64,000 nucleotides of DNA, from NCBI GenBank assembly GCA_003344405.1, contig NOWV01000010.1:124001-188000 (forward strand). The letters are read 5' to 3'. The notes below the pieces were generated by a model, which was given only the letters and a program-made list of their open reading frames with translations, had not been told where the DNA came from and did no database searches. Source of the DNA: Trichoplax sp. H2 (Eukaryota). Below, piece after piece: positions 520-46,800 of the stretch. How positions within the stretch are numbered: position 1 is the stretch's first letter; every line of letters starts with the position of its first letter. A program made the translations under genes and the position numbers.

Positions 520-915
520 CCAGTAAAGAACTGTACTATAGTTTTACTTTTATCAAAAAATATAAATTTTGTACTTGTACTTGTACTGTACAGTACAGTT
601 CTGTAGTGTACAGTACTGTATTTTATTTTGAAATTTTACACATGGTTTTACTGTACAGTACTGTACTGTACCAGGACTGTACTGTACTGTACAGTACTAC
701 TGTATGGACTTGTAAAGACTACCGTGGTATTTACTGTAGAAGTCCCTGACTGTACACTGTACAGTACACTACAGTACAGTAAAACCATGTGTAAAATTAC
801 GACTGTACCTACGAGCCTGACACGCAAACCGTCGCTTTACTGAATAATTAGTTGTACAGTACGCTACTGTACACTATAGTTCAGCACCATGGCATGGGCT
901 ACGGTACTGTGCTGT
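520..915. repeat. Mixed CAGTA/CTGTA pentamer island in the EBP2-WDR36 divergent promoter region
   Basis: Dense TACAGTA/TACTGTA units in both orientations, lying between the ATG at 381 (-) and the ATG at 1168 (+). Confidence 0.9.
632..798. repeat. Fold-back structure with perfect 25-bp inverted arms (632-656 / 774-798)
   Basis: AATTTTACACATGGTTTTACTGTAC at 632 is the exact reverse complement of GTACAGTAAAACCATGTGTAAAATT at 774. Inner GGACTT...AAGTCC arms continue the symmetry imperfectly. Confidence 0.85.
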
Positions 916-10794: not shown

Positions 10795-12355
10795 AGTACT
10801 GTACTGTAGAGTTGCAAGTTCATAGTACAGTACAGTACTGTACAGTATAGTACTGTACTGTATAATCGAATCCGCTATGCGAAGGTAACAACGTAACAAC
10901 CATACTGTACACTGTACAGTACAGTGTACTGTACAGTACTGTACAGTACTTTACAGTATAACAAATGTAATAGCACAATCCAGGGTATCTACAGTATGTT
11001 AACTTCACGGACACATTCACTAAACTTTACCCCCCCCCCCCAACTGTCTATGCAAGAATTGTTCAATCAACTCATTCTCTTTCATTAGGTATAAAATTTA
11101 TTTGTAAAAAACAAAAATTTTTTTTATACAGTACAGTACATTTGCAAGTACTGTACAAAAAAATGGAAAAATTCACCGTCCACAGCGTACACTGTACAGT
11201 ACAATACTGAGTATGGAAAATACTACCATGTACTGTACTGTACTGCCTTATTAAACAGTTAACTTCACAGAATCACGTACAGTACTGTACTGTACACTGT
11301 ACTGTACTGTACAGTACATAGTACGCGAAGTATCGTAGAATGTTCTGTATAGTACAGTACACTGTACTGCACAGTACAAACTGCGTGTTCTTTCGTCAGC
11401 CGATTCCGACAAACGGTGTAACTACTGTACAGTATGTTAAGCAAGAGTACGAGTACTGTAAGTGTACGCTTGTACACTGTACAGTACAGTACAGTACAGT
11501 AAACGGACAGTCAGGTAGAGATAACTTTCCGCTACTTTATACTGTACAGTACAGATTCTTTACAGGAGAAAGACGTACAGTAGAGTACAGTACAGTAGAG
11601 TACAGTACAGTAGAGTACAGTACAGTACTGTACTGTACAGTACTGTATTAGACAGTACAGTATACTGTAAGACTGTACTGTACTGTACCGTACTGTATAC
11701 TGTAAGGACATACTGTACACACCGTAATGCAAACTACTGTATACTGTACTGTACAATGTTAAAAATGATTCAAAACTGGACAGGTATCATATTACCTTTA
11801 AAGGTACAGTATCGGAGAAGACGTGTAATAGAGGATTGGAAGACCGTTAAGCTCGGTTTATGTTATTAGTTGAAACTCGTTTTCTAGATCAAGATTTCCG
11901 TTAACGAGCAAGCCCCAACTGCCATTGGATACGGCAAATGCAGGATTCCTTTTTTACCACTTCATTATTGGCATACTAGCTAGCTAAAGAGTACGCTTTA
12001 CTTAAATTGTATCTGTATATCGTGCATCGAAGAGTCTAGCTAAAGGTAGGGTACGAAAATGTAATCTAACGACCTATTACAGCTTATTGTTTACTATCTA
12101 GTTGAAATTAATTTGCACTGAAATACTGTAAATTGGGACCTTTTGCAGTATTTGGAAATTATATTATGTTATGAATCAACTTATGATTGGAAAAAATCAA
12201 GCATTGACTGATGCCCTGACACCAACTCTTTGCACCGTTCTAAAGCCATGTTTATATAGTATATACTATACTGTGTACAGTACTGTATGCAGTACTGTAC
12301 AGTATATATTATATATAGTATATACTGTACAGTATAGTATATAAGCGTATACAGT
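10795..12355. repeat. Large mixed CAGTA/CTGTA pentamer island between the divergent UBL gene and KDM4
   Basis: Very dense units at 10795-11760 and a second cluster at 12255-12355. Includes a 15-bp higher-order unit (TAGAGTACAGTACAG)x3 at 11581-11625 and a poly-C run at ~11030-11041. Confidence 0.9.
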
Positions 12356-13793: not shown

Positions 13794-19234
<5,441 letters not shown>

Positions 19235-26842: not shown

Positions 26843-29800
26843 TTACACTCCATAAGAATTTGCAAGCCTTTCTTTTAAAGGTTGAGGAAACTGATTAGAA
26901 AAATTTCTCCAATTTTCTTCACCAACTTGCATCTTAAAGCCATGCAAAATCTAAAGCAAAAGCGTAATCTCTTTCAGGATACAATCACAAGAACGACCGT
27001 GTATAATCAGAGTACAATCTACCTTATGAAATGTTTCCTTCAAATCTTCCTTCGGACTATGCCAGGATGCAACCGCATCGCAAAAATACATAAAATCCTA
27101 ATGCACCATAATCGTCATTATGAACAACGTAGTTTAACATGGTAGCTCATAACAGCTTACAGAGAATTTACCTGAACGACACCGCCAGGGTTAACACTAA
27201 TCATCCTACAAATACCACGAAATGCAGAATCTTTTTCTTCATTATCTCTAATGCATCTTAGTGCTTTACACCTTCAAAATATGGCAGGATCAAAGTATAG
27301 TAAGTCTCTAACATTAAATTTTACTAAGTTAATTGATTAATAAAGATACACTACCATTTTTGAATGAAGTTTGGCAATTTAGGAGCAACTTCATGTGGAC
27401 AAACATATCCTAATCGTCCAACCGTAATTGCTAATGTCCAACATTGAAGGATGACTTTTTAGAATAATATCAATCATATACAACATAAAAATATAAAACG
27501 AACCCGTATTTTCTAGTAAAGTTTTGGGTATGTCATCTCTATTAAGGATTTCAATCAGTTTATCTAACACTAAAGGCAAATAGGGTTGCACATCTGGACC
27601 TAAATAAAAAATGCGAACAATTAAATACTGCTGTAATCATATTTTTTGTACCCTAATGGTTTATAGATTTTTCTTTTCAGAAAAGTAGTACATACCCATT
27701 TGCATTGCCATCTCACCGATTGCCCATGCCGAATTATTGCAAACAGACACTAAATCCGGATTTAAATTTTTTCCAAGTAAAGGCATCATATCTCCTAAAA
27801 TTAAAAAATACGATACGAATTTTTTTAAATGGTGTTTCAGTAAAATTGCCAAGAAATCTGAAACATACCAACATATTGTTGTACATGTCCGAAGCATGCC
27901 TTCGTAAGATCACCAAGCAATGCAAATGAGCTCTGTCGTACTTCATCCGTTTGATCCTATATACATTACATAAAATTAATAAACCAATTAAGAAACATTT
28001 GTATCTATTAGCTACAGTATTAAACTCATTAGTCTAAAAAACCAACCTGCATGCACTGATATAGAAGTGCCAGCAAATTACTCTTTCCAATCAGTGAATC
28101 AATATTCTTATCAATTCCTTCCGTTAATCCACTCAGTAAATCTAAAGCAACTATCATGAAATCTTTGTCCGGTTGATCATACTGATCTATAGGTATCTGA
28201 ACTGTACTCTGACTTAAGGTCTGTTCCACCAGAGACACACATCGTTGAAATACTGGCTCCGCATACGGTAAGAACCCGGATTGAAGAGCTATAGCAATTG
28301 ATGACAAACACTAAAGCCAATGCAAATTATTAAATTGCCAAATTAATGCATCTTCGATTAATATAATTTTCATAAAAATGTTAATTGAATCCTACTTCAA
28401 GCAATGGGAATAAATCTCTATCTTGATCATGTAAAGCATTCCACTTTTGTATTAACGGTGGCATCAACATAATAATTAATTCCTAGTCATAATAACATTA
28501 ATAGATTTCAACATGAATACATGTATACTACGAAATTCTTCATTACTACATCAACTACGTACCGGTTTATTAAGATGATGTCCAACAGAGTCTGCAAGCG
28601 TACCAAAGGCATCATACAATATCAGAAGGTTTTTGCGCTAAACAAACGTATATTCACATTAGTAGTCAATAGCAATGGAACTATTCTTGAACAAAGTCTT
28701 ATCTAACCTGATATTTGCTAAACGCAAAGACAAGCGTTTGAATAATATGATCCAGATAAGGAACAAGAGCAGAGCAGGCTTCTTCTTCAAGGGTAGCAAA
28801 TGCACTACATTTACGTAAAATGTATACGATGAACGATAACTCATAAGTGGTTATACTAAACGTGAAAGATTGTCTCAAAGATATCTGCAGTTTACCTGCA
28901 AGCAGCTTCTTGAACCCGCTTATTACTATCTAACAGACTCTTTAGTAACTAAAAATAATAAAATCCGTGAAAGATAATCCACCGTACTACAAGCAAAGAC
29001 AAAATTAAAATCAAACCTCTGTTATCAGATCTTGAAAAAAGCTTTTCTCAGACTGATTTACAACCCAATGTGCGTAACGACTAAGTGTCCAACATGCAAT
29101 TGAACGAACAGGAGCCTATCAAGGATATCATAAAATCTTTCAGTTTCAGCGCCGTCTAGTAACAAATAATAAAACCAACCTTATCATCGGATAATGATTT
29201 TATTAGAAAAGGAATCAAGGTAGGCAAATGTTGATTCAGCCCTCTTAAACACCCTGCAGAAGTAACAGAAACAAGTTCTTGAATTGTGTCACTTAAAAAT
29301 AGCAAATATGCAGTTGTAACCTTCTGCAACAGCCCCAAGAACAAGAATGCCTGATTCTTTAACTACCCAATCACTATTGAATAATACTTCTTTCAGGATG
29401 GGTAGTAGCACTGGCAGAAGATCATTCCCAAAAACACTCGCTAAAATATCTAAAGCCGCAGCTGAGCACTTCCCTATATAGTAAGTTAGAAGAAATAAAC
29501 CATTTTCTCCGAGAAATTATATTACATGAATATATATATATATATATATAGACGAAATCTAATAAAGCAATTACTTAGGTTCCATTCAGATAACATTTCG
29601 TCATCATCTGAGTCGTCATCATAATTATTATCTGTTGTGACGTCACCATAACCTTGGTTATCATCTATCCCATTTACGTGCTGATGACTCTGCAGCTTCG
29701 GTTTATGAAACCGTGGCTTAATATCTTCTTCCTTATCAGGAATTCCTTCATCATGTTCATCATCCTGCAATCAAATCTTTATTAATCTAATGCTATATTG

Positions 29801-32800
29801 TACAATATGCTAAAAAATATCAAATAACATGTTATCAATACGTAATTTTACAACCGTACCTTTAGTAGCATTACATCGATTTCTGAATACTTCATCCCAC
29901 TTACAAGCACAGGAACTAAACTATTCATTAACATAATTTCCAAATTTCAGATATTACAGTTATGCTTGTTTGTTATTGCACACCTAAAACTTAGTCTTCA
30001 AAAACTAATAGGGTATACGCCTAACCTTGGCAAATAAGGGCGTAATGCTTCCTTACAAATGGACTGCTCAGCTATTATTAACCAAAATTCACAAGCTTCC
30101 AGTGCAACATTTCCATCTTCATCTTGTGTGCGAACCAGCATATACTAGCGCAATTTCGAAATACATTGTAAGGTTAGGTACAATAAAACTACTAAAAAAT
30201 ATTTACATTTTAACTTACCTCAATGATGCCATTAAGAAACGGCACCAATTGGCTTATTCGAATCCCTAATAAAGTCACCAAAGCATGACAAACATTTTTC
30301 CGAACTTCACCCGATTCATCGTTAGCAACAGAGAACAAATTCTGAAATGACATACGTACAATCAGGATGAACTTTTATTGAGTAAAGGTTCTTGAATACC
30401 GTAAAGAACTAAATGTTTTCAAGCCAATTATTACACTCTAAATCAACTATATCTAACGAAAATACTCGAAAGAGTACATCGGAGAACATACCTGAATTAA
30501 ATCTTGAATATGCGGCAAAATCGTTGACGCTTGCATAAAGTGGCATATACATGCGACTGCTAATGATCTATAAAATACAGAATGTGTTTCATTAATGCTA
30601 GTAATACTAAATATCAAGTTATATGTTTGCTACAGGTCGTAACTCTGGTAAATGCGATCCGTAAGCGGTATAGTAGAAAATCCACGAAACTTAATACAAG
30701 TACTGTAATTGGATACCTAATTTTAGGACTGTAGTGTTTGATATATTGAATAAACTTTGGAATCATGAAATCCACTGGCAATCCAGATACAACATCGGCA
30801 ACATCAGCAACATCTTCGCAAATGTTATGTAATGCTAGAAAGGCACCCTGCTCGTACAGAAAATACAGGCCGAACAATAAGCATAGCAGTCACATCGACA
30901 AGCGAAATTTCTTTTTGTAATTACTAAATTACATTACTGAAAGCAGGAGTAAATTCTTCGATACCTGATCCAAGCAAAATCAATCTGCTATCATTACAGC
31001 TTATTGCTATTTTGCAATAGCTCCGATACAGTGAAACACGAAATGCTACAGTACGTATCCGACCTATCGTTCCTTATTATGCTATGCATTATAAAAAAAT
31101 TCTATGGCAGGCCCTACACTTTCGATTCGATAAAGTGTACTAATAGTACAGTACATACGAGTATTCGAGTATAGTATTCAGTCCATAAAATTGAAAATAA
31201 TGATTGTGAACATTTATATACAAATAACAAGATCTATATTCGAAATCGCACAAACGTGATAACATTGCACTCATCTTTAAAGAGTAACTGAAATGCTTTA
31301 CGAGCATATGCGTACATCGTAATCCAAGTCGGTCAATCGAGTGATAATGGCCCTTTTGATACAGGCATATTCAATAACATGAAATTAACTGAGTATGAGG
31401 ACTTTGCGAGTACTTGTGATGTTATACTGCACTATAATGTATACCGTCAAACAATATATATATATATATATATATAATTACAATCTACTAAAACCGTGAA
31501 ACGACCGTAATATTAAATGTCAAAAATCAAATTTTCCAGATGACTATGTGTATGTAGAACATCCATACAAGTTACAACAATCTAAAACAATATAAGTATA
31601 ACCCAAGATCTTTTCGAATCTACCATTGCATATGCTCGCACCGTAAATTTTATCAAGGAATAAAAATGAATTCTCATCTTGAGTACACGTATCTCCCAAA
31701 CGGTAACTGAATTACATTATAAACTAAAGATTACAATGCCTGTTTGAGGAACCAGTCAACCACTGTCGCTAAAAATTCTTCACGCGCAAACTAAATAGTA
31801 TTTGAAGATCAGTAAACCGACAAAGATAGAGATTAACTGAATGTAATTAAAAGACTGTGTATGAAATAACAGTTGCAGTTGTAAACTATATTAGCCAGAA
31901 CGTCAGCCAGTCCACCAAATGTGCACAGGTGATTAATGACTATAACTATAAGCTGTTAATAGTCCATACCAGTGGTATAGGTCGATCCGTGCCATAAAAA
32001 GCGGGATTTTTACATTTGCATCTATGAATACGCGTATATAGCACTCTACCACGTAGTACAGTAGTGCAATTAAGAAGGCAATCAACTGGTAGAGTTGAGG
32101 CAGCTTTATAAACCCTTAAGCAGTTCACGATGCATGCAGTGACACCTCAATGTAGTACAGTAAATTCAAGAATAATTTGTATAACGCCGCATGGGATTGT
32201 ACGATACTAAACTTACTGCATCAATATTAGACAATTCTATGCTAATATCCAGCTAACAAGCGTAACTGCTATAGAGAGTCGAATTTCGATTGATAACACC
32301 AAAAATCTTTCAAATTATACTACTACGAGTATAGTGCTAAAATGAAACTTAAGTAGCTATTTTGGTTACTTAATTAAAGGGTTTGATTAACATCATAAAC
32401 CAACAACGCTTTCTCTCATTATTATTACTATGATGACTGAATGACACAACAAGTAAAATGAAGTATACAATATAATACATCTAAGTAACACTAAATAAAT
32501 CATGCAACTAGGCAATAAAAGACAGTTCGCTGAATCGAACTCTTCTATTGAATTGTTAACATCCAAGAATAAACTCCCGATAAAGCGTTATTCGAAAAGT
32601 AGGTTCAATCTAATTAGCTATTACCATAACAGCTAAACTGAAATTTGTATCAAACCCTCACATCCAATTCGCACACCTTTCTACTTCTACGATTGAAACT
32701 TCATTACTACCGCAGTGCACCATGAAATACTGTACTAACACCACGATAATACATTGCCAACAACGTATATCTCACCTCACAAGCCTCATAGTTTCCGCTG

Positions 32801-34608
32801 TCAACCAACTGAAAAAGTGCCGGTATTAGATCTTGCCACTCAGCAAACCCATCGTTTCGAGCAACTGCAGTTATCAAAATAGCAACTATTGCCCTAATCA
32901 AAGGCGAAGGGTCACCAATCGTATGCAGGCACTCATACTTTATCAGTTGCCTTACGTTCTCTGGAAATTTTTCATAATGTGATTTAACGTTGTTTTTAAG
33001 AATTAATCCAGCTAATGAACGAGTATGATCATCTATAACAGTAGAACGTATAAAAGATTTTTATTAGTTTTATTCTATTTATGCTTGTCGTTATACTGCA
33101 ATATTAGATTGTTGATACAAACATTACAGTTTCCATCTACGTATATATTTACTATATCGAGTACTAAGAGTAATTAATCAACGTCGACACTGCTACTGAA
33201 GCTAACCTCTTCAAGCTAAGCTATATCAGATGCAGTGAAATGAGCAATTTTACGAATAACAATACCATAAATGATATAACTAACCTTCTGTTGTCATCTT
33301 AGTTAGTACAAATACCAAATAATTGTTGAAATCCGGATAACAACTTAAACTTTCTAATTTCTAATATTGCCGAATAATTGCAATTTGCATACTTAGTTAA
33401 GAAATTTACATCAAAGCCTCCGTTACACTCTCAATTCTGATGCGAAACGTAAACAATAATTAGCAAAAAAGCGTCATATCATAAATTTAACCCAACTAGC
33501 TAGTAAATCAGGCAGTCAGGGCGATGCTGTCAAGAGAGAATGATCCTATCTTAAAAATACGCCTTTACGATTACGTAAGGTAACATAATCTTGATACGTT
33601 AGATACTGCGAAATAAGTGGAATTGCTACAGTACCTTGTACAGGGCAAGATCATCACATAAGAACTCACATTTAGCACAGTATAAACAAATTTGATGCGG
33701 GTATGAATAGTGAACCTTCTACTAATCAACTAGTAACGTGATAACGAGTGGTAAACTGGCATCAAAAAGATTTGATTATACTAGTTTATGAGATTACTGT
33801 ACACAACTCTTTGAGATTTTACGCAACAGTATTACCTTGCACATGGCAATCGTCCAATTAGTATACAGTATATATACATACATACATACATACATACAAA
33901 TACACACATATTGTACTGATCTTTTTAGTCTTGTTAGCGATAAATTATAAGATACAGTTCGTACTTTTAATCCAACTCAATACTACAGTAAAATGTACAC
34001 GTGCGGTTTAAACATGCATTGTCGCCTTTATACAGTACAGGAAGGAGCAAAACTATAATAACTTTTATGATTGAATCAAACTAAGATTTGGTGCCATAAT
34101 TCATGACTACAGTCTACTCAACAAGCAAACGTTACATCTCAATATTCCATAGAAAGATTTAAACTGTCGTACCTACAGTTTAAAACTTTCAATTGCTAGA
34201 TTACAGAAATATGTGTGGTATCTTTTACGGATCATTAAAACTTAGAACGCAATGATGCAGTTAAAAGGTATCAAATTCTAAAGACTACAGTACTGTACAT
34301 CCAAGCACAACTATCAATAGCAATCAGGTTGTTCAACATTGATTATAAATACTAGAATCAACAAGTAAAATTGCACGAACTATCCACTTTTTATCATTAT
34401 GTATCAAGAATAACGGGTTAATATTATACCAACATAAATACAGACAATATAAATTTGAATTTCGATCATTGGAATCTAGAAATGCCATCGCAGATTGCAT
34501 CAAGGATACGTTCTGTACAAGAGTTTGAATTCCCGTATTAGGGCTTTGACATTCCTTAAGAAGTTGCAAAATTTGCCTTAAATCAACTTCATTCGGCTGC
34601 CACGCCAT
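26843..34608 (-). CDS. TNPO1: Transportin-1 (karyopherin beta-2)
   Basis: [42 protein letters not shown]; acidic H8 loop [13 protein letters not shown]...[30 protein letters not shown]; ends [11 protein letters not shown]. Confidence 0.96.
33361..34509 (-). other. Candidate U12-type (minor spliceosome) GT-AG intron, first coding intron of TNPO1
   Basis: Donor reads GTATCCTTG (U12 consensus RTATCCTTT). A U12-like branch sequence TTCTTAAC lies at 33403-33396, ~35 nt before the AG. Splicing gives the in-frame join ...LVQN|KLESL. Confidence 0.7.
33872..33900. repeat. (TACA)n microsatellite in TNPO1 intron
   Basis: tatacatacatacatacatacatacatac run. Confidence 0.85.
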
Positions 34609-34661
34609 ACTGTCTGAGTAAAGTGTATTAGTATACCCTAACTATTAGAAAAATATCAAGT

Positions 34662-35768
34662 CGATTCCGACTACCTGACAGCCAACACAGGTTCAAATAA
34701 TATAATTATTGAGGACAAAAAATGTGACACGATAGCGGAACGCATGAATTGGAGCGGCTAGCGAAGTTTTTATTTTTTTACTGTCTAGTACGGTACTGTA
34801 CCATGTACTGTACAGTACAGTACTCCATGATTCAGCAGTTCACAGTACACAGTACAGCACTACAGTAGATATACAGTACTGTACATTGTACGGTGCGGTG
34901 CATCCAGTAGTCCATGACTGTACAGTACTGTATGAGTTGATACTGTACTGTACAGTACAGTACTGTAAGTACTGTAGCTCCGGCTGCTAGAAGCTGATAC
35001 TGGACAGTAAATTGTACTGTACGTTACTGTACAGTACTGTAGATCCCCGCCACCATGGGAGCTAGCTAAAAAGAAAGAAACGACCAGTGCAAAACACAGT
35101 AATGTGGAGGCTTTTTATTCATTCTTGGGGTCATTCTACTACACGTACAGTATATGCTACCGATGAAACCNNNNNNNNNNNNNNNNNNNNCGATTCCGAC
35201 TACCTGACAGCCAACACAGGTTCAAATAATATAATTATTGAGGACAAAAAATGTGACACGATAGCGGAACGCATGAATTGTAGCGGCTAGCGAAGTTTTT
35301 ATTTTTTTACTGTCTAGTACGGTACTGTACCATGTACCGTACAGTACAGTACAGTACTCCATGATTCAGCAGTTCACAGTACACAGTACTGTACAGCACT
35401 ACAGTAGATATACTGTACAGTACTGTACTGTACTGTACAGTACACTGTACGGTGCATCCAGTAGTCCATGACTGTACTGTATGAGTTGATACTGTACAGT
35501 ACAGTACAGTAAGTACTGTACTGTAAGTACTGTAGCTCCGGCTGCTAGAAGCTGATACTGTACAGTAAATTGTACTGTACGTTACTGTACGTTACTGTAC
35601 TGTACTGTACTGTACTGTACAGTACAGTACAGTACTGTAGATCCCCGCCACCATGGGAGCTAGCTAAAAAGAAAGAAACGACCAGTGCAAAACACAGTAA
35701 TGTGGAGGCTTTTTATTCATTCTTGGGGTCATTCTACTACACGTACAGTATATGCTACCGATGAAACC
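34662..35768. other. Segment duplicated on either side of a 20-N gap (34662-35170 vs 35191-35768); probably two uncollapsed haplotypes
   Basis: Near-identical unique sequence, both copies ending or starting exactly at the gap 35171-35190. Differences are mostly in pentamer content. Confidence 0.85.
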
Positions 35769-37260
35769 GTATACAATCCAGTCCAAACTTAACAGGCTAA
35801 TAGTAGCTAATTTGGACGTCAATGATAGACAGTATAATGGACCGTTGCAGACATGCGATACACTTGAAATGACCAGTAAAAATAATCAGCCTCCACATCA
35901 TGAGGATACAATCATTCCTTGTCTCGTCTCTTTCTTTTAGCAGTCCCTGCCGCCACTCTATAAATAGTAAGTGGATAGTTTCAGTAATACTGTAGAGGTC
36001 AAAAATACAGTAGAAGAAAAAAAATGCTACAGTACAGTACAGTACAATACAGTACTGTTGGTTTCGTGGTTCCAACTAGTTCCGACGACAGTACAGTACA
36101 GTACAGTACAGTACTGTAGTGGTAATTGTAACAATTAAAGACTTTTTATCAAACTACAGTACAGTACATTCAGTTTACTGTACAGTACTGTACCGTACTG
36201 TACTGTACTGTACAGTACTGTAAGCTTGACAGACCAGACCCGTAAACAGTAAACGTGTTACGTGTTACTGTGTAAGGCGATTGGCCATTACATTTCAAAA
36301 TGAACGATGAAAATGAAGAANNNNNNNNNNNNNNNNNNNNCAGACATGCGATACACTTGAAATGACCAGTAAAAATAATCAGCCTCCACATCATGAGGAT
36401 ACAATCGTTCCTTGTCTCGTCTCTTTCTTTTAGCAGTCCCTGCCGCCACTCTATAAATAGTAAGAGGATAGTTTCAGCCATAGAGGTCAAAAATAGAAGA
36501 AAAAATGCTACAGTACAGTACTGTACAATACAGTACCGTACTGTTGGTTTCGTGGTTCCAACTAGTTCCGACGACAGTACAGTACTGTAGTGTTAATTGT
36601 AAAGACTTTTTATCAAACTACAGTACTACAGTACATTCAGTGTACAGTACGGTACTATACTGTACTGTACTGTACTGTACACTGTACAGTACTGTAATAA
36701 CGTTGACAGATTTTTCATTTTCATTCACTGTCACAGTACTCTACAGTACAATATTGATTTTTACTGTACAGTATGTACTGTAGCCTAGAGCTACCATAAG
36801 AAGTACTGTACTGTACTGTACAGTACTGTAAGCTTGACAGACCAGACCCGTAAACAGTAAACGTGTTACGTGTTACTGTGTAAGGCGATTGGCCATTACA
36901 TTTCAAAATGAACGATGAAAATGAAGAAGCTAATGCCGAATTGAAGGTTTACTATTTGTATCCTATATTACTGTTGATCCGTATCTTGTATTTCAGTATT
37001 CATAATAATGCCTAAATGATTGGCATTACTGTTTCTCTACTACACAATTTTGTCTTTATTATAAACTTCAGCTAGTTTATGTTTGTCTCTGCTACTCTAA
37101 TACTATCTACAGTACAGTACGGTCTTTCGCACAATTGTACACTGCAGTAGTAATACAGTTACAGTATTGCAAGCCCGCGTACGTTTCCATTTCTATTACT
37201 GTGCTGTACTACCGTATACTGGACTGTATGGGTATTTGTTTATTACTTATCTGTACTGTA
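34780..37260. repeat. Mixed CAGTA/CTGTA pentamer island in the TNPO1-YIPF1 divergent promoter, extending into YIPF1 intron 1
   Basis: Densest arrays in the window, for example 35575-35640 and 36090-36220. Confidence 0.92.
35848..36928. other. Second segment duplicated across a 20-N gap (35848-36320 vs 36341-36928); probably uncollapsed haplotypes
   Basis: Both copies start CAGACATGCGATACAC and end ATGAACGATGAAAATGAAGAA. Gap at 36321-36340. Confidence 0.85.
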
Positions 37261-40200
37261 CTTACGAGATTACTCGTACACGAATGCTGCTAAAATACAG
37301 TAACTACATCAAATCATCCACTTCTCAGTCGTAGTTATTCATGGAGAACGCATTAAAGTCTTTTGAAGCAGCTATGCAGTACCGTATTACTGAACAGTGA
37401 ACAGTATACTTGCAGAATCTGCAGACCCGATATTAGCAACAAGTATTGAGTATTTGTATTCGGTAATATTAGGTACTAGCATTTGCAAGTGAAACTGCCA
37501 ACGTGTCGATTGCTTGTAATAGAAATGCTGCGCAATTTGACTACGTAATTTACTGCTCGTCAAATACAATATACACAAATAAAGCCACTATAGTCAATGG
37601 CTAACAGCTTCCACTTTTCGATGCTTGATGAAGCCTGAAACTTGACGCTTTATCCACTACATACAGTACGTGCAATACGTTCATCAGATGCTCACTCACT
37701 TTATGGATAGTAGATTCAAGCACATTTTAAATACCAATTTCTCTGAATACACATCTTCCCATTTACGATTACAAACATTCGTACACTATAGAATCATATT
37801 GCATATACTGTATGCCGTTAATTAACTATAAAGAATTACAAAAATGCTTGAAGGAACAAGCTGTCTTGCACCAACTAAATCTGAATCTGAATACAGTACA
37901 TAGCACTGATTACTGTAGAACTTGAAAGCAGGCTGAAAACTCTACTCTACTGCATATCACGACATTAACACTGGCTATGGAACTATAGGTTCAAGATATT
38001 GTAGAGTAGTCATACAGTATGTTAATGTAAGCGTATACGTCAATATTTCACCAGCAGCTCTTGAAGTTCGTAACGAAGAAACAAATAAATAAATAAGTAT
38101 AATCCTACTACCCAGTGATGTTGTAATCCAGTAATACTATTCAGACGGACCTGATAACGTATGTGTACTGTAGTAGAATGTAGTAACTGAATATTCTTTT
38201 AATGTAATGCCCGGAAACAAATTTTTAAATATGTATCTAGACCCAGAAAGACCAAGACGACGTTTCCGTTGGTAGCTTGCAATTTCAAGGTATTTTATGC
38301 TACTTTTATAATTGAACATTCACAATGTTGGTAAAATTGAAGGAGCTAACTCTAAAAATTTGGCAATAACGACTTTTGAGAAAAAATAGTAATTTGAATG
38401 CAATCGTTTAAAAAATACGGTATGTGATTTGCTAATAACTTTATATAGAGTTTGGAAATGGAAATCCGGCGACAACTATACCATTAGATGCTGGAGAAAT
38501 TGGAGATGCAGGTCTCCAAACAAATCGTGGGGTGCCCATTTCATTTGATAGCGCTGGTAAGTCTAAAGTTTTTAAAATATAGTACGTACAGTGTGAGGTG
38601 TACTGTATAGTATACTATAGTACTGCATATTCTGGTAAATGTATAGTAGATTGATATTGCAAATCAGAAAATTTACTAACGTCAACTTCAGTATAAATTA
38701 ATCCAATGTTAATCGTATAGTATATACCACTCAGTCACTACGGCAAAGCAATCGCCAATACGTATATGTCTAGTATTTGTATGGCCTTTAAATAATATTA
38801 CACATTAATTAATTATTAAGGGTAATGTATGTGTATTCTAAATATATATGATGTTCATTATATCCCCCACTATAGATGAACAAGAGGATACAGCCTCAAA
38901 TGTAAGTTATCCCATAGACACTTTACTATACGTTATGCAACTCGTTCAGTTTGTAGCAAAGGGCAAACGCAGTACTGAGAGAATTGCATTTTATCCCATA
39001 GATCGTAGTGACAAATGTTGCATACGAAATAGCGCCTACGGTGCATATTGTATGATAAATATGTATCTGACTATGATACTATGCGAACGAAATGAGCTGA
39101 TAAAACTTGGAACGATAATATGATAAAACGAATAACTTGATGAACAGTTGAAATTCTATTCCCTATATTGTACACATATCGCTAGTAATCAAAAGTGGTT
39201 ATTACAGAAATCGATGAATACGATAGTACTATACAATTCTGTAAAGATAAACAATGATAGATCCATTCTTCTACTGAGTATCTGCCACCTAAGAGCTTTC
39301 GAAAGTTGGGAGTCATTTACAACAATTGCGAACATAATGCGTATGTCGCGTGTGTAATGTATGTCTAGTAATACGCGTTTTATTCTCGTAATTGATTTCT
39401 TCTTCTAGTTATTGACTAATAAACGAAAGAAAAATATGCCCATGTGGACCTTCGATTACTATATGCAATTCTTCGACATAACCACAACTCAGGTTTCGTT
39501 TCTTAGATAAAATAAGGGTTTTTTAATGTTTTCATTTAATTTTTCTCTTTGTTCAAAATCTCGAAAGTTTCTGTGAGCATGTTGTTAAAAGTTCGGTAAA
39601 ATTCGCTACTGACACTGCAAGCTATTTAACGTAAGGTATAGAACATAAATAAGTAACGCCTGTATTTCAGGTTTTACAGAGAATTACCGGATCTGTTATT
39701 CCATCGTTTCAAGGAAATTATTTAAGAAAATATATACGAAGTAACCCTGATTTTTATGGTCCGTTTGCAGAGATCATAAACTTTGAATCAATATGACACA
39801 ATTGCTTTTTAGCTTCTTTAAATAGTGTACCGTAATGTAATGATCATCAACTGCATTTCGTTCTTAAAGGTCCTTTTTGGATATGTGCTACACTAGTATT
39901 CACTACTGCTATCAGTGGCAATCTAGCTGATTACATCACCCATGCTGGAGATCATCAATGGACATATGACTTTCATAAAGGTTGAATATTTATATCAATC
40001 AATAATGATAATTTGCTGAGTTCCAATTGTTCTTTAAATTAAAATATTAAAATTTTAAGTATTATATGTCGTTGTTTGTTATCTTATTTGGTATTCATAA
40101 AGCAAATTACTTTTAGTTACTGCAGCTGCTGGCGCAATTTATGTCTACGCTTGGCTTTTACCAGTTTTGTTGTGGGGTTTACTCTGGTGGAGGCACGACA

Positions 40201-40947
40201 CTGTTGGAGCGAATATAACAGAAGTTGTTTGTATTTATGGCTATTCATTGTCCATTTACGTGCCGGTGTCGGTAATTAAGTTCATTAATCTTTGTAATGA
40301 AGTGAAAATATGGAAAATAATATTGTATTGAATTGTTTATATATTGATTCAAAGATTTTATGGGCTATTCCGTTCGAATGGTTAAGATGGATATTAGTTA
40401 TTCTAGCAGCTGTCTCATCAGGTATAAATCTTTATACACCTGAAATCGAAACCGCTTATAGCATCAGCACAAGTTAAAACATCTACACAGTATACATCAT
40501 ATTGTCAGATCGAGATTCCAGGTGGAATGTGAACGGAGTCCTTTAGAAATTTAAATTACACTGATTGCAATACGAATCGTTTCATTGTAGGACTTACAAT
40601 GTCGCGTGTTTAACTCGGCAAAATATTAATAGTTTTCGTTCTCCTAGGACTAGTGCTTGTATTTACGATTTGGCCTCTTTTGAAACACGAAAATCGCCAA
40701 ATGGCTACTCTAATTTCTCTAATCGTCCTGGCTTTACACGCTTTACTGGCTATCGGCTTCAAGGTCTGAAGTATACATGATTATTTTAATACCGTCCATA
40801 TGAAAGGGCATGGACCGTTGAAGTTAAGATTTACTGTTAATCCCTTTTCAGGTATATTTCTTTGGCTCCGTCGGGAAAGCTGTTTTAAATAGCACTTCTA
40901 TTGCAAGTCCTTCTACATGGACTACTCTGACGCCTATGACGCTTTAG
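36908..40947 (+). CDS. YIPF1: Yip1 domain family protein YIPF1/2
   Basis: MNDENEEANAELK|TQKDQDDVSVGSLQFQ|EFGN (exon 38241-38289); WTFDYYMQFFD; YIRSNPDFYGPFWICATLVF..ISGNL; CIYGYSLSIYVPVS; TAG 40945-40947. Confidence 0.93.
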
Positions 40948-41606
40948 TATCACAAGCATACAAAAATACATTTATATTTATGATCGTATAATTTGTTACT
41001 TTTCCTAAAATTAAATCATACCGGTCTACAACGAAATCTGTACCCGCAACACCTTCTGCGTAATGTGCAATATATACGAGGTATGCATAATACTCATATG
41101 AGGGAACGCAGTATGGCTATAACTATTGCCGGGCGTGGATTATGCAGAGAATGTATTAACATATCGCATTTACTTAATTTAACTACAGTGCCGAATCTTT
41201 ATAAACCAATTACATATTCTTTATTGCATATTATTTTGACCAGACACATCAAATTTATTAATCTAACTATATAAACATACGCGAAAATCAGTGTCACATT
41301 ACTCATATTACTAAAGTACCAATACAAGATTAATCCTAAGATCGCTGTTCCTAACGTCGGAAGAGACTGAATTGTAATAAAATTATGCGGCAATAAGTAT
41401 TAAAATGTATATCACATTCTGTATTAATTACCCAACATTGGCATTAGCCCAATAATGCCATCAAAGAATCGGTACCGTGATTGAATGGCTGTGTACTGTA
41501 TGGAATCTCCAATTATACGAGTACAATGTAACACCGCCTTTGAGTACTACTTATTCGTGACTGTAATTAAACATAATATTTAGGTGCTAGGTTTAAAGGC
41601 ATCTGT

Positions 41607-44836
<3,230 letters not shown>

Positions 44837-44939
44837 GTTACCGAGCAAAGATTAGGTAGATTGATTTAATAATGGAGAAATTGTTTTTTAATTTCAGATC
44901 AGGAACAAGTTCTTTCAGGTCTCTTTAAAAGACAGAGGC

Positions 44940-45100
44940 AGAGTACGGTGCAGTACAGACAGTAAAGTAAAGTACTTACTGAACTGTACAGTTGCTACGG
45001 ACCAGACCTTACAATACACTACAGCGACTACACCGTTGATTTTACGGCCGCTTGATCATTCGGCCACCCTTCGGATACCTTTCCTTCATACAGTACACTA
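44940..45100. repeat. Sparse CAGTA/CTGTA cluster upstream of FARSA
   Basis: Several degenerate units ~100-260 bp 5' of the FARSA ATG. Confidence 0.55.
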
Positions 45101-46800
45101 TAGCACATAGTATCTATGTAGGACTTCAAAAATGTATGGCTTAGTATAGTAATTCAGCCAATTAATCATCCGGCCACCCGCAGGATTATGGTTAGGGACA
45201 GACGGACTTTTCTTGCCCAATGAAGCCGTAAATATCGAAAAATAGCTACTCAGTATGGATCTTCTGTATCTGTTTTCTAAATCACTGGTACCAATTTAAA
45301 TAACTGTTACGATCTTATATAACTGTTTTCATGCAGAATTTAGTAATGGGTGATAAGATTCAACGTAATATTACTTTCGTAAATATTTCTTTTACGAATT
45401 TATTATCGAGAAGTCCCTGCTGTCATAACGAAGTATTCGAAACAACCTTCTGACGAAATGAAGCCGAAAAGGTCTGTCCGTCCAAGAGTGATTAATTAAT
45501 TAATCAATCCAAGTATTCTTCTTCTAGCGTTATATAGTCCTATTGTAGCAAATAAATTTTACTTTGCAAAGCTATCTGTAATAATCCCCAATGAAGTACA
45601 CTGATCTGTATACTGTATAGTGAGAAGTCTGGTATACTGTATGTATATTACTGTTATTATCAGCGCTCTCTTATGAACTGCTGTTAGAAGAGAGCGTCTT
45701 GTCCTAGTTGTCCATTACGATGGTATAATTATTTATTGATACTATCAATGCTGGAGTTTATTACCTGCATTGTCTATTGCATTTTTTCAACGATAGATGT
45801 AAAAAATGTCTTTCTTACCTATGTTTCCAAGACTAGTTTCGACTACTAATATGTCGCAACAGAACAAAATAAGCGTTTTTCTGGCTAATAGGCAATATTA
45901 ACGATTGCAACCGGAGATCATCTTCAATGAGTTAATCATGATCAAGACCGTCAAAAGCTATAATCAAGTTTACTCGGAGTCCTTTCATATAGTTTTCTTT
46001 TAATTTTTTTTTACAGACTTTAGCATTTACTGTGTAATGTAGTTACTTAACAAGATTATTCTTAAAATCTTAAAACACGCTAATATACGCTCGTATAAAT
46101 GCAATAACAATTATTATAATATTGCTATTATAAACAATTTTTATAAAGGGAAATTAATGATTTAATCGTGAAGTCTACAGCCAATATTAATAATGATCAT
46201 AAATTTAAAATTTTTCATTTGTTCTATAGCTCATGGGAGTCATTTTCGTCCATTAGAGTCAAGACAGGCATGCTGCACATAGCGACTGTGTGCAATACCA
46301 ATTTGTAAATCTGCTAGACGTCGGGACCACAACATTAAACGAACTAACGAAGGTTTACAGTGGCACTTGCTACAGTACTTAGCTCAATCATTGCTTATTA
46401 TTAAGTTAACTGCATGTACTGTATATAGCAGTTCCAAGTTTAAAGTGAAACCCGTCATTCAATAAAGTACCGTAAATTCATGCGAAATACCCATATGGTA
46501 TCAATGCAATCATTTGCGCTACATAAAATTTCTATTCTTTTCACAAAACATACCGTAAATATTCCAGTTAATTAAACGAAATAGGAAGTTGTAGTTGTAA
46601 TTCGCCGCTGAATATTAAGTGATTGTGGCAGTAACAAAATTGTATATAAATTAATTAATTAGTGACGAGTTATTCCATTTCGAAAATGATAACTTGGTGG
46701 CCATTTACAATTCGATACATATCCATATATGGTAAAATATATACATATCGCATTTAAAATATAACAAAAAAATGAATTATAATTACAAATCTATTCAAGA

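What the first reader, a model, noticed from the sequence alone, without database searches (positions are those of the whole stretch)
35988..36540. Allelic copies differ by exact Tc1/mariner excision footprints (TA to TA-CAG-TA or TA-CTG-TA)
Seen: the two copies flanking the gap at 36321 differ at isolated sites. One has AAAAA-TACAGTA-GAAG (36006-36012) where the other has AAAAA-TA-GAAG (36494). One has A-TACTGTA-GAGGTC (35988-35994) where the other has A-TA-GAGGTC (36481). Neither site has an adjacent pentamer to copy, so replication slippage does not explain them. Established: Tc1/mariner elements duplicate TA on insertion, and Sleeping Beauty-type elements with CAG...CTG ends leave TACAGTA or TACTGTA after excision. 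Inference: these are polymorphic footprints of an element that inserted and then left.
Basis: partly seen in the sequence, partly recalled or inferred. Interest (0 to 1): 0.92.

Follow-up and report, generated by a model that had tools for sequence, protein, structure and literature searches.

The report
Transposon-like excision scars in Trichoplax
The two 5-base differences are real and belong to the already-published, unexplained ACAGT "microsatellite" of the placozoan Trichoplax adhaerens, whose fine structure looks more like piled-up scars of a TA-targeting jumping gene than a slippage repeat, although no such jumping gene was found here.

Summary
Copy A has TACTGTA (35988-35994) and TACAGTA (36006-36012) where copy B has plain TA (36481, 36494). 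The two copies abut a 20-N gap exactly and behave as unmerged haplotypes. A second gap (35171-35190) shows the same geometry.

These sites are part of something larger. TACAGTA and TACTGTA are the two commonest 7-mers of the window: 123 each after masking duplicate copies, against 3-13 for composition-matched TANNNTA controls. The window is Trichoplax adhaerens, and this is its known, unexplained, super-abundant (ACAGT)n repeat (Wang et al. 2010).

The structure argues against simple slippage:
- The central A or T is random between neighbouring units (43 same, 36 different).
- Arrays end in TA phase (61% of ends against 20% for random phase).
- Isolated heptamers are 4-6 times over-represented.
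- Their flanks show an A|TA|T bias.
- None of the six 5-bp allelic indels is an exact tandem copy.

All of this matches Sleeping-Beauty-type footprints (TA + CAG/CTG + TA).

Several points count against or remain open:
- No element with such ends and no transposase lies in the window.
- Published surveys call Trichoplax transposon-poor and inactive.
- The polarity of the indels is unknown.
- Public short-read contigs break at the arrays.
- Repair synthesis templated by nearby arrays could explain the current polymorphism.

The footprint origin is plausible (about 0.55) and I found it in no searchable paper.

The parts
35988..35994 (.). TACTGTA unit present in copy A only. It is a complex site, because the adjacent bases TA (35985-35986) differ from CC in copy B.
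36006..36012 (.). TACAGTA unit present in copy A only. It is a clean 5-bp difference at a TA in the non-repeat context AAAAA_GAAG.
   Evidence: gap can slide by 2 bases only
36481..36482 (.). Plain TA in copy B, homologous to 35988-35994.
36494..36495 (.). Plain TA in copy B, homologous to 36006-36012.
35848..36320 (.). Copy A of pair 2; it ends exactly at the N gap. Read as one haplotype.
36321..36340 (.). Assembly gap of 20 N.
36341..36928 (.). Copy B of pair 2; it starts exactly after the gap. Read as the other haplotype. A 213-base contig of run X8 lies on 36345-36557 without gaps.
34662..35170 (.). Copy A of pair 1; it ends at the gap 35171-35190.
35191..35768 (.). Copy B of pair 1; it starts after the gap 35171-35190.
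35386..35390 (.). One extra unit in copy B of pair 1 (CAGTA-CTGTA-CAG against CAGTA-CAG). It differs from the neighbouring unit only at the central base.
   Evidence: slide 4, not a tandem copy
34920..34924 (.). One extra unit in copy A of pair 1 (CTGTA-CAGTA-CTGTA against CTGTA-CTGTA). Its central base is opposite to both neighbours.
35411..35415 (.). One extra TACTG unit at an array edge in copy B of pair 1.
36533..36537 (.). One extra unit with a central C (TACCGTA) in copy B of pair 2.
34786..36830 (.). Cluster of many short TA(CWGTA)n arrays separated by unique spacers. It holds 111 of the 287 heptamers of the window (bins 34001-38000, duplicate copies included). It lies to the right of an importin-beta-like exon (32710-33060, minus strand).
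10796..11754 (.). Second cluster of arrays, about 3 kb upstream of the KDM4-like JmjC exon (14957-15328, plus strand). It includes a 15-bp higher-order repeat at 11575-11620.
590..800 (.). Third, smaller cluster, enclosed by a 40-nt inverted repeat (632-671 and 759-798).
36129..36135 (.). 7-bp allele-specific insertion at a TA. It makes the palindrome AATTGT-A-ACAATT, which fits snap-back templated repair or a non-canonical scar.

Best explanation
The TACWGTA units (W = A or T), including the two in the finding, began as excision scars of a cut-and-paste DDE transposon. The inferred element duplicates TA on insertion, has CAG...CTG termini, and is cut with a 3-nucleotide stagger (Tc1/mariner, Sleeping-Beauty-like chemistry).

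Mechanism:
- After excision, the two 3' CAG overhangs pair C:G and G:C around an A:A mismatch.
- Repair of the mismatch gives TA-CAG-TA or TA-CTG-TA with equal odds.
- Each scar turns one TA target into two. Repeated hits in the same open, promoter-proximal regions therefore build TA(CWGTA)n arrays with a random central base.
- Ordinary slippage and block duplication then stretch some runs, and point mutation erodes them.

The result is the super-abundant (ACAGT)n 'microsatellite' already described for Trichoplax adhaerens. The two allelic differences are a gain or a loss of such units on one haplotype.

Shown: the sequence differences, the array statistics, the species, and the prior description of the repeat. 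Inferred: the transposon itself, the direction of the changes, the repeated-hit growth of arrays, and whether the process is still running.
For: (1) The unit is identical to the canonical Sleeping Beauty footprint (PMC6943129, passages).

(2) The ratio is 123 TACAGTA to 123 TACTGTA, against 3-13 for the ten composition-matched TANNNTA heptamers. Central bases in TACNGTA are A 123, T 123, C 15, G 14.

(3) Within the 43 perfect arrays of 2 or more units, the 79 neighbouring unit pairs split 43 same and 36 different (binomial p = 0.50). The split is even in arrays of 2, 3 and 4 or more units. Single-unit slippage would give mostly 'same'.

(4) Of 334 array ends, 204 (61%) stop at TA with no partial next unit. 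A repeat with random phase would give about 20%. Another 17% abut a one-mismatch unit.

(5) Isolated heptamers are in excess. With no unit-like pentamer within 50 bp there are 33, against a control mean of 2.6 per heptamer. Within 100 bp there are 11, against 1.4 per heptamer. These have no local template.

(6) The base just outside isolated heptamers is T in 48 of 100 half-sites (background 0.32, p = 8e-4) and A in 12 of 100 (background 0.30, p = 4e-5). This is a symmetric A|TA|T target. From memory, Tc1 and Sleeping Beauty show the same preference.

(7) The two haplotype pairs give 21 indel rows. Six are exactly 5 bp, and none of the six is an exact tandem copy of its neighbour. Three differ from the neighbour only at the central base.

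(8) Arrays occur as many separate small arrays at different TAs inside regions of about 1-2 kb. This is what repeated local hits would give.

(9) One-mismatch variants are in excess (450 against 257 expected, mostly transitions), which indicates a long history.
Against: - No pair of inverted ends of the form TA-CAG...CTG-TA was found in the window. The screen required 22 of 28 matching bases within 80-6000 bp, and its single hit was array sequence.
- No transposase family appears among the 25 of 36 Pfam families shown for 104 of the 116 ORFs of 68 aa or more. I left out the other 12 ORFs because they lie in the array and duplicate region.
- Wang et al. 2010 report 0.13% transposable elements and no active element. 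They found 11 mariner/Tc1 fragments, of which three have complete ORFs but lack terminal inverted repeats and are single-copy. MITEs are rare.
- The internal TAs of an array sit in a G-TA-C context, not the A-TA-T context seen at isolated sites. Array growth by repeated insertion therefore needs an extra assumption: local hopping, attraction to scars, or a structural preference.
- In the two haplotype overlaps, non-slippage unit changes are about as numerous as base substitutions (11 mismatches in 943 aligned columns). That would require a very high local hit rate if all of them are new insertions.
- Over about 17 kb of unique DNA in four public runs, none of the 12 indel rows shown is a CWGTA (31 rows in all; 19 were not shown).
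- 5-bp changes inside mixed arrays could also be slippage deletions that tolerate the central mismatch.
Confidence: 0.55

Rival explanations
1. Array-templated repair. The arrays, whatever first made them, are fragile quasi-palindromes. Breaks in or near them are repaired by microhomology-primed, polymerase-theta-like synthesis that copies a TA-to-TA unit from a neighbouring array on either strand. Units of either orientation are thus added without any transposon. On this reading the polymorphisms at 35988 and 36006 are templated insertions, or TA-microhomology deletions.
For: - Both sites lie 15-35 bp from the array starting at 36027, which offers TACAGTA and TACTGTA as templates.
- Copy A shows two insertions that create palindromes with their own flank: CAGTA-A-TACTG at 35982-35992, and AATTGT-A-ACAATT with the 7-bp insertion at 36129-36135. 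This is the pattern expected from snap-back synthesis.
- The arrays fold into strong hairpins as single strands (z = -4.0 to -5.1 for three arrays).
- Unit changes are concentrated in and beside arrays, while none of the 12 indel rows shown for unique DNA (19 of 31 hidden) is a CWGTA.
- No active transposon needs to be postulated in a genome reported to lack one.
Against: - It does not explain how the arrays started.
- It does not explain the 11 heptamers that lie at least 100 bp from any unit-like pentamer (1.4 expected per control heptamer) or the 33 at 50 bp or more.
- It does not explain the A|TA|T flank bias at isolated sites.
- Templated insertions usually vary in length and end point. 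Here six of 21 indel rows are exactly 5 bp and TA-bounded, and 61% of array ends are in TA phase.
- I saw the polymerase-theta paper (PMC4490562) only as a search listing and abstract. The properties of such repair are otherwise recalled, not read.
Confidence: 0.22
2. Ordinary pentanucleotide microsatellite, the published reading. (ACAGT)n arose from chance proto-repeats and grows and shrinks by replication slippage. The mix of orientations comes from A-to-T changes at the central base, for example by correction of quasi-palindromes. The repeat may be kept by selection as a binding motif near promoters.
For: - Wang et al. 2010 classify it this way. They find 54% of the repeats within 1 kb upstream of genes.
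- A Hi-C deep-learning preprint recovers a repeating ACAGT motif linked to chromatin-contact features.
- Some allelic differences are pure run-length changes: (ACAGT)5 against (ACAGT)2 at 36088-36102, and the 40-bp difference at 35587-35626, which consists of run expansions plus a 10-bp block copy.
- A 15-bp higher-order repeat at 11575-11620 shows block duplication.
Against: - The central base is random between neighbours (43 same, 36 different) even in two-unit arrays (14 and 13).
- If the variation came from point mutation, transitions (G or C at the centre, 14 and 15) should outnumber the A/T transversion. Instead A and T are equal at 123 each.
- Two-unit arrays show no excess of perfect palindromes (13 different against 14 same), so quasi-palindrome correction is not dominant.
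- Arrays are in TA phase.
- Isolated single units are 4-6 times over-represented.
- None of the six 5-bp allelic indels is an exact tandem copy.
Confidence: 0.13
3. Artefact or paralogy. The two copies are a real tandem duplication, or the differences are assembly or sequencing errors, so nothing allelic is being compared.
For: - No public contig bridges the arrays, so the single-copy structure was not seen directly.
- The region is repeat-rich and flanked by gaps.
Against: - In both pairs the left copy ends at the last base before the Ns and the right copy starts at the first base after them. This is the signature of two overlapping contig ends that failed to merge.
- Contigs lying inside duplicated segments have single-copy depth. 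Records 4, 12 and 28 on 35645-35873/9 have depth 53.9, 32.3 and 18.7, against baselines of about 65, 33 and 31. Record 3 on 33912-34855 has depth 65.1.
- The G/T difference between the copies at 34752 and 35281 segregates among runs: T in X1, X3 and X4, G in X8.
- A gap-free X8 contig matches the copy-B form over 36345-36557.
- The same kind of unit differences recurs in both independent pairs.
Confidence: 0.05

Closest known systems
Canonical excision footprint of Sleeping Beauty and related Tc1-like elements (TA + CAG or CTG + TA)
   Same: The 7-bp product is identical (TACAGTA or TACTGTA), both forms occur, the net gain at a TA is 5 bp, and the flank shows an A|TA|T bias.
   Different: No donor element, occupied site or transposase was found. 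The units are stacked into arrays sharing TAs, which I have not seen described for footprints. The host is reported to be nearly free of transposons.
The (ACAGT)n microsatellite of Trichoplax adhaerens (Wang, Zhang, Meyer, Bao 2010, Biol Direct 5:18; PMC2871265)
   Same: It is the same species and the same motif. The paper reports that 78% of 7,233 pentanucleotide repeats carry this motif and that it is enriched upstream of genes. This window holds 29 perfect runs longer than 12 bp, against about 3.5 expected from the paper's genome totals.
   Different: The paper treats it as a slippage repeat and a possible transcription-factor site. The words 'footprint' and 'excision' do not occur in its main text. 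The mixed orientation, TA phase, isolated units and allelic unit changes are described here.
Polymerase-theta-mediated end joining with templated insertions at transposon and other breaks in C. elegans (PMC4490562; seen as search listing and abstract only)
   Same: Short insertions are copied from nearby sequence, including snap-back palindromes like those at 35982-35992 and 36129-36135.
   Different: It does not create a fixed 5-bp, TA-bounded unit at sites without a template.
Footprints of fungal Tc1-like elements such as impala and Fot1 (recalled from memory, not checked in any call)
   Same: As I recall, they leave TA plus three terminal nucleotides, a 5-bp addition.
   Different: They are single scars at known donor sites of identified active elements, not genome-wide arrays.

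Membership tests
Tc1/mariner (Sleeping-Beauty-type) excision footprint | The target TA is present on both sides of the inserted bases (TA duplication retained). | tested here: met
   Both sites, and four of the six 5-bp allelic indels, read TA-NNN-TA against a single TA. 61% of 334 array ends stop at TA.
Tc1/mariner (Sleeping-Beauty-type) excision footprint | The three inserted bases are the element's terminal CAG or CTG, with the central base resolved either way. | tested here: met
   TACAGTA 123 and TACTGTA 123; central C 15, G 14. The canonical form is quoted in PMC6943129.
Tc1/mariner (Sleeping-Beauty-type) excision footprint | An element with TA duplication and CAG...CTG inverted termini exists in the genome. 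| tested here: not met
   None was found in the 64-kb window. The whole genome is not held. The literature reports only 11 degenerate mariner/Tc1 fragments and rare MITEs. A genome-wide test is not possible with these tools.
Tc1/mariner (Sleeping-Beauty-type) excision footprint | A DDE transposase of the superfamily is present or expressed. | tested here: inconclusive
   No transposase appears among the Pfam families shown for 104 ORFs of the window. Wang et al. mention three complete mariner/Tc1 ORFs without inverted repeats elsewhere in the genome, and I could not retrieve them.
Tc1/mariner (Sleeping-Beauty-type) excision footprint | The same site is seen occupied, empty and scarred in different alleles or strains. 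| tested here: inconclusive
   Empty and scarred alleles are seen, but no occupied allele. Public contigs break at the arrays.
Tc1/mariner (Sleeping-Beauty-type) excision footprint | AT-rich palindromic target preference around the TA. | tested here: met
   At the first flanking base T is 0.48 against 0.32 and A is 0.12 against 0.30, over 100 half-sites. The preference of known elements is recalled, not checked.
Slippage microsatellite | Head-to-tail copies of one oriented unit, with length changes that are exact copies or losses of neighbouring units. | tested here: not met
   Orientation is random between neighbours (43 same, 36 different). None of the six 5-bp allelic indels is an exact tandem copy. 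Some larger changes are run expansions, so slippage contributes.
Slippage microsatellite | No fixed phase at array borders. | tested here: not met
   204 of 334 ends are in TA phase, against about 20% expected.
Templated-insertion (polymerase-theta-type) repair product | The inserted bases are identical to sequence within a few tens of bases, with microhomology at the junctions. | tested here: inconclusive
   This is met for the two sites of the finding, which have a template 15-35 bp away, and for the 7-bp palindromic insertion. It is not met for the 11 heptamers at least 100 bp from any unit-like pentamer.

The most novel reading that the evidence does not exclude
The dominant 'microsatellite' of the placozoan genome is not a slippage repeat. 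It is the accumulated scar tissue of a TA-targeting cut-and-paste transposon. A rough scaling from this window and the published counts suggests tens of thousands of excision footprints, stacked into arrays because each scar doubles the local TA targets.

The element either persists unrecognised at very low copy number or has been purged by excision without reinsertion. Purging of this kind is what theory predicts for largely clonal lineages. In an animal that propagates by fission, 'somatic' excisions are heritable. The scars have since become promoter-proximal motif arrays that chromatin-contact models pick up.
Probability: 0.4. Interest if true: 0.8.

Novelty: new variant of a known kind. 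Interest (0 to 1): 0.6.

Why it matters
If the footprint reading holds, four things follow.
- It explains a 15-year-old oddity: the only animal genome reported with a pentanucleotide as its main microsatellite.
- It shows that a genome scored as almost transposon-free carries a massive record of DNA-transposon traffic.
- It gives a concrete, countable test of the idea that clonal lineages lose transposons by excision.
- It identifies a new route by which transposons seed microsatellites and promoter-proximal motif arrays.

If instead the arrays spread by templated repair, they would be a natural, genome-wide reporter of that repair pathway in an early-branching animal.

Tried and rejected
- **Whole genome.** None is held for this window, so no genome-wide indel or element search was possible.
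- **Public reads.** Logan contigs of four runs (X1, X3, X4, X8) were laid on 27000-46999.
  - The contigs stop at the arrays (at 34855, 35645-35873 and from about 36801). None bridges either gap, so the long allele at 35988 and 36006 was neither seen nor excluded.
  - The many 'joints' in the array region have sides of only 18-28 bases and are array cross-matches.
  - Only 12 of 31 indel rows were shown. For example, the 5 gap letters of X4 record 21 (37027-38741) could not be inspected.
  - The summed depth of about 14,000 on 35004-35670, against a baseline of about 65, shows only that array-like sequence is very abundant in the assemblies.
- **Inverted-end search.** The search for TA-CAG...CTG-TA ends gave one hit, which was array sequence.
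- **General inverted-repeat scan.** It returned array self-matches, plus the pair 632-671/759-798.
- **Pfam scan.** 104 of the 116 ORFs of 68 aa or more were scanned; the 12 inside 34748-36948 were left out. Only host domains appeared among the 25 families shown (WDR36/Utp21, Ig, EGF, JmjC, GPS/GAIN/7tm_2, importin-beta, RING, PheRS and others). Eleven of the 36 matched families were not shown.
- **Rfam.** No match.
- **Second Pfam call.** It was meant to place the neighbouring genes and named only the importin-beta exon.
- **Earlier findings of this scan.** Nothing relevant.
  - Searches were poorly aimed and gave nothing usable.
  - Searches found no paper linking footprints to microsatellite origin or to placozoans.
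  - One search found five papers holding both 'ACAGT' and 'Trichoplax', of which only Wang et al. 2010 and the Hi-C preprint concern the repeat.
  - One search found no later report of active Tc1/mariner elements in placozoans.
- **Inverted pair of the two footprints.** In copy A the two units form an inverted pair (7-bp stem). I do not count this as meaningful, because any A-type/T-type pair is complementary, which happens half the time by chance.
Full report
**1. The observation**

- Copy A has TACTGTA at 35988-35994 and TACAGTA at 36006-36012.
- Copy B has a single TA at 36481-36482 and at 36494-36495.
- The second site is clean: a 5-bp gap whose placement can slide by only the two bases of the TA.
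- The first site is more complex than described. The dinucleotide one base upstream also differs (TA in copy A, CC in copy B), so copy A reads CAGTA-A-TACTG, a small inverted repeat.

**2. Are the copies alleles?**

Copy A (35848-36320) ends at the last base before the Ns. Copy B (36341-36928) begins at the first base after them. A second gap (35171-35190) is flanked in the same way by 34662-35170 and 35191-35768. This is the geometry of two overlapping contig ends that failed to merge because the haplotypes differ by indels.

Public contigs add support:
- Contigs lying inside duplicated segments have single-copy depth. Records 4, 12 and 28 have depth 53.9, 32.3 and 18.7, against baselines of about 65, 33 and 31. 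Record 3 has depth 65.1.
- The G/T difference between the copies at 34752 and 35281 segregates among runs: T in X1, X3 and X4, G in X8.
- A gap-free X8 contig carries the short, copy-B form over 36345-36557.

No contig bridges the arrays, so the allelic status is strongly inferred rather than seen directly.

**3. The wider pattern**

The two sites are not isolated curiosities.
- TACAGTA (145) and TACTGTA (142) are the two most frequent 7-mers of the whole window.
- With one copy of each duplicate masked, they are 123 and 123. The ten composition-matched TANNNTA heptamers give 3-13, and base composition predicts 14.2 for the two together.
- They form 167 perfect arrays TA(CWGTA)n holding 246 units: 124 singles, 27 doubles and arrays of up to 9 units.
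- The arrays are clustered at about 0.6-0.8 kb, 10.8-11.8 kb and 34.8-36.8 kb.
- Laid public contigs pile up on the arrays to a summed depth of about 14,000 against about 65 elsewhere. Array-like sequence is therefore very abundant in these assemblies.

**4. Species and prior knowledge**

A JmjC exon at 14957-15328 is 100% identical to a record named TRIADDRAFT_27796 of Trichoplax adhaerens.

Wang et al. 2010 (PMC2871265; outline and passages read) reported the following for this species:
- Pentanucleotides are the commonest microsatellite class: 7,233 of 11,697.
- 78% of the pentanucleotide repeats carry the single motif ACAGT.
- 54% of these lie within 1 kb upstream of genes.
- Transposable elements make up only 0.13% of the genome, and none looks active.
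- There are 11 mariner/Tc1 fragments. Three have complete ORFs but lack inverted repeats and are single-copy.
- MITEs are rare.

The authors suggested a transcription-factor site. The words 'footprint' and 'excision' do not occur in the main text. A Hi-C deep-learning preprint recovers a repeating ACAGT motif for Trichoplax.

This window holds 29 perfect period-5 runs longer than 12 bp. That is about eight times the genome average implied by the paper's totals.

The repeat itself is therefore known.

**5. Slippage repeat or scars?**

Several tests on the window argue against a simple slippage microsatellite.

(a) Orientation. ACAGT and ACTGT differ only at the central base. In the 43 perfect arrays of two or more units, the 79 neighbouring pairs split 43 same and 36 different (p = 0.50). 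The split is just as even in two-unit arrays (14 and 13). Slippage copies a unit and would give runs.

(b) Central base. The counts are A 123, T 123, C 15 and G 14. Decay of a one-orientation repeat by point mutation would favour transitions, not the A/T transversion.

(c) Phase. 204 of 334 array ends stop at TA with no partial next unit, against about 20% for random phase. A further 17% abut a one-mismatch unit.

(d) Isolated units. There are 33 heptamers with no unit-like pentamer within 50 bp, against a control mean of 2.6 per heptamer. There are 11 at 100 bp or more, against 1.4.

(e) Flanks. At isolated heptamers the first flanking base is T in 48 of 100 half-sites (background 0.32) and A in 12 of 100 (background 0.30). 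This is a symmetric A|TA|T bias. From memory, Tc1 and Sleeping Beauty show the same preference.

(f) Allelic indels. The two haplotype overlaps give 21 indel rows.
- Six are exactly 5 bp, and none of the six is an exact tandem copy.
- Three of them differ from their neighbour only at the central base (35386-35390, 34920-34924, 36533-36537).

Slippage does contribute. The 15-bp difference at 36088-36102 and the 40-bp difference at 35587-35626 are run or block expansions. A 15-bp higher-order repeat sits at 11575-11620.

**6. Mechanism proposed**

- Staggered cleavage three bases inside CAG...CTG ends leaves two 3' CAG overhangs.
- These pair around an A:A mismatch, and resolution either way predicts the 1:1 ratio and the random central base.
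- Each scar creates a second TA, so further hits at scars would stack units that share TAs.
- One-mismatch variants are in excess (450 against 257 expected, mainly transitions). This points to a long history, with an average age well above the divergence between the two haplotypes.

**7. What speaks against it**

- No element with suitable ends and no transposase domain lies in the window.
- The published surveys find no active element.
- The internal TAs of arrays sit in a G-TA-C context, not the A-TA-T context of isolated sites.
- In the haplotype overlaps, non-slippage unit changes are about as frequent as substitutions (11 mismatches in 943 aligned columns).
- In about 17 kb of unique DNA across four runs, none of the 12 indel rows shown (of 31) is a CWGTA.

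New units therefore appear mostly in or beside arrays. This fits a rival in which breaks at these hairpin-prone arrays (z = -4.0 to -5.1) are repaired by microhomology-primed synthesis templated on neighbouring units.
- The palindrome-creating insertions at 35982-35992 and 36129-36135 in copy A have the look of such repair.
- The rival cannot start arrays or explain isolated units and their flank bias. It may still account for much of the present polymorphism, including the two sites of the finding, which lie 15-35 bp from an array.
- Alternatively, the short alleles may be TA-microhomology deletions of old scars. No outgroup was available to decide.

**8. Verdict**

- The footprint interpretation is partly supported. 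The scar signature is exact and is backed by six independent statistical features of the window. The transposon is missing, the direction of change is unknown, and activity is unproven.
- The repeat is already known as the Trichoplax ACAGT microsatellite.
- The reading of it as stacked excision scars is, as far as my searches reach, new.

My odds:

| Reading | Probability |
|---|---|
| Transposon-scar origin | about 0.55 |
| Array-templated repair as the main generator | 0.22 |
| Plain microsatellite | 0.13 |
| Artefact or paralogy | 0.05 |

Noticed in passing
window 36129-36135: Copy A has a 7-bp insertion at a TA (AATTG-TA-ACAAT-TA-AAG against AATTG-TA-AAG in copy B). The inserted bases are the reverse complement of the left flank, giving the palindrome AATTGT-A-ACAATT. 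It looks like a snap-back templated repair product or a non-canonical scar with a TA duplication.
   Followed up: partly
window 11575-11620: A higher-order 15-bp repeat, (TACAG TACAG TAGAG) x3, carries a mutated unit through each copy. The arrays therefore also grow by multi-unit block duplication.
   Followed up: partly
window 632-671 and 759-798: A 40-nt inverted repeat, 95% complementary. Its outer arms (AATTTTACACATGGTTTTA / TAAAACCATGTGTAAAATT) are unique sequence and it encloses pentamer arrays. It could be a foldback or a MITE-like element, but I did not search for other copies.
   Followed up: no
window 36641-36759: A 119-bp block present only in copy B, flanked by arrays. Part of it (GTAATAACGTTGACAGA) resembles the sequence just right of the next array (GTAAGCTTGACAGAC). 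It may be a local duplication or a recombination between arrays.
   Followed up: no
window 37027-38741 (X4 record 21): This contig of a run labelled organism B carries 5 gap letters relative to the window, in a stretch that holds the isolated heptamers at 37662 and 38013. The corresponding indel rows were among the 19 not shown, so a presence/absence difference there could not be checked.
   Followed up: no
window 44971-45281: All four runs' contigs break here, and the summed depth in the bin 45009-45675 rises to 207-438 against a baseline of about 30-65. The stretch holds degenerate pentamer units at 44940-44995 and a 19-bp repeat at 45278-45325. Some part of it is repeated elsewhere in the genome.
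   Followed up: no
window 29521-29567, 31432-31478, 33863-33911, 11030-11042: Other simple repeats at which contigs are cut: two (TA)n runs, an (ATAC)n run and a run of about 13 C.
   Followed up: no
window, TACACTGTA and TACAGTGTA: The 9-mer TACACTGTA occurs 9 times and its reverse complement TACAGTGTA twice, mostly inside arrays. This is the product expected if one overhang base is lost and the ends are joined without pairing, that is a possible non-canonical scar. The 9:2 strand asymmetry is unexplained.
   Followed up: partly
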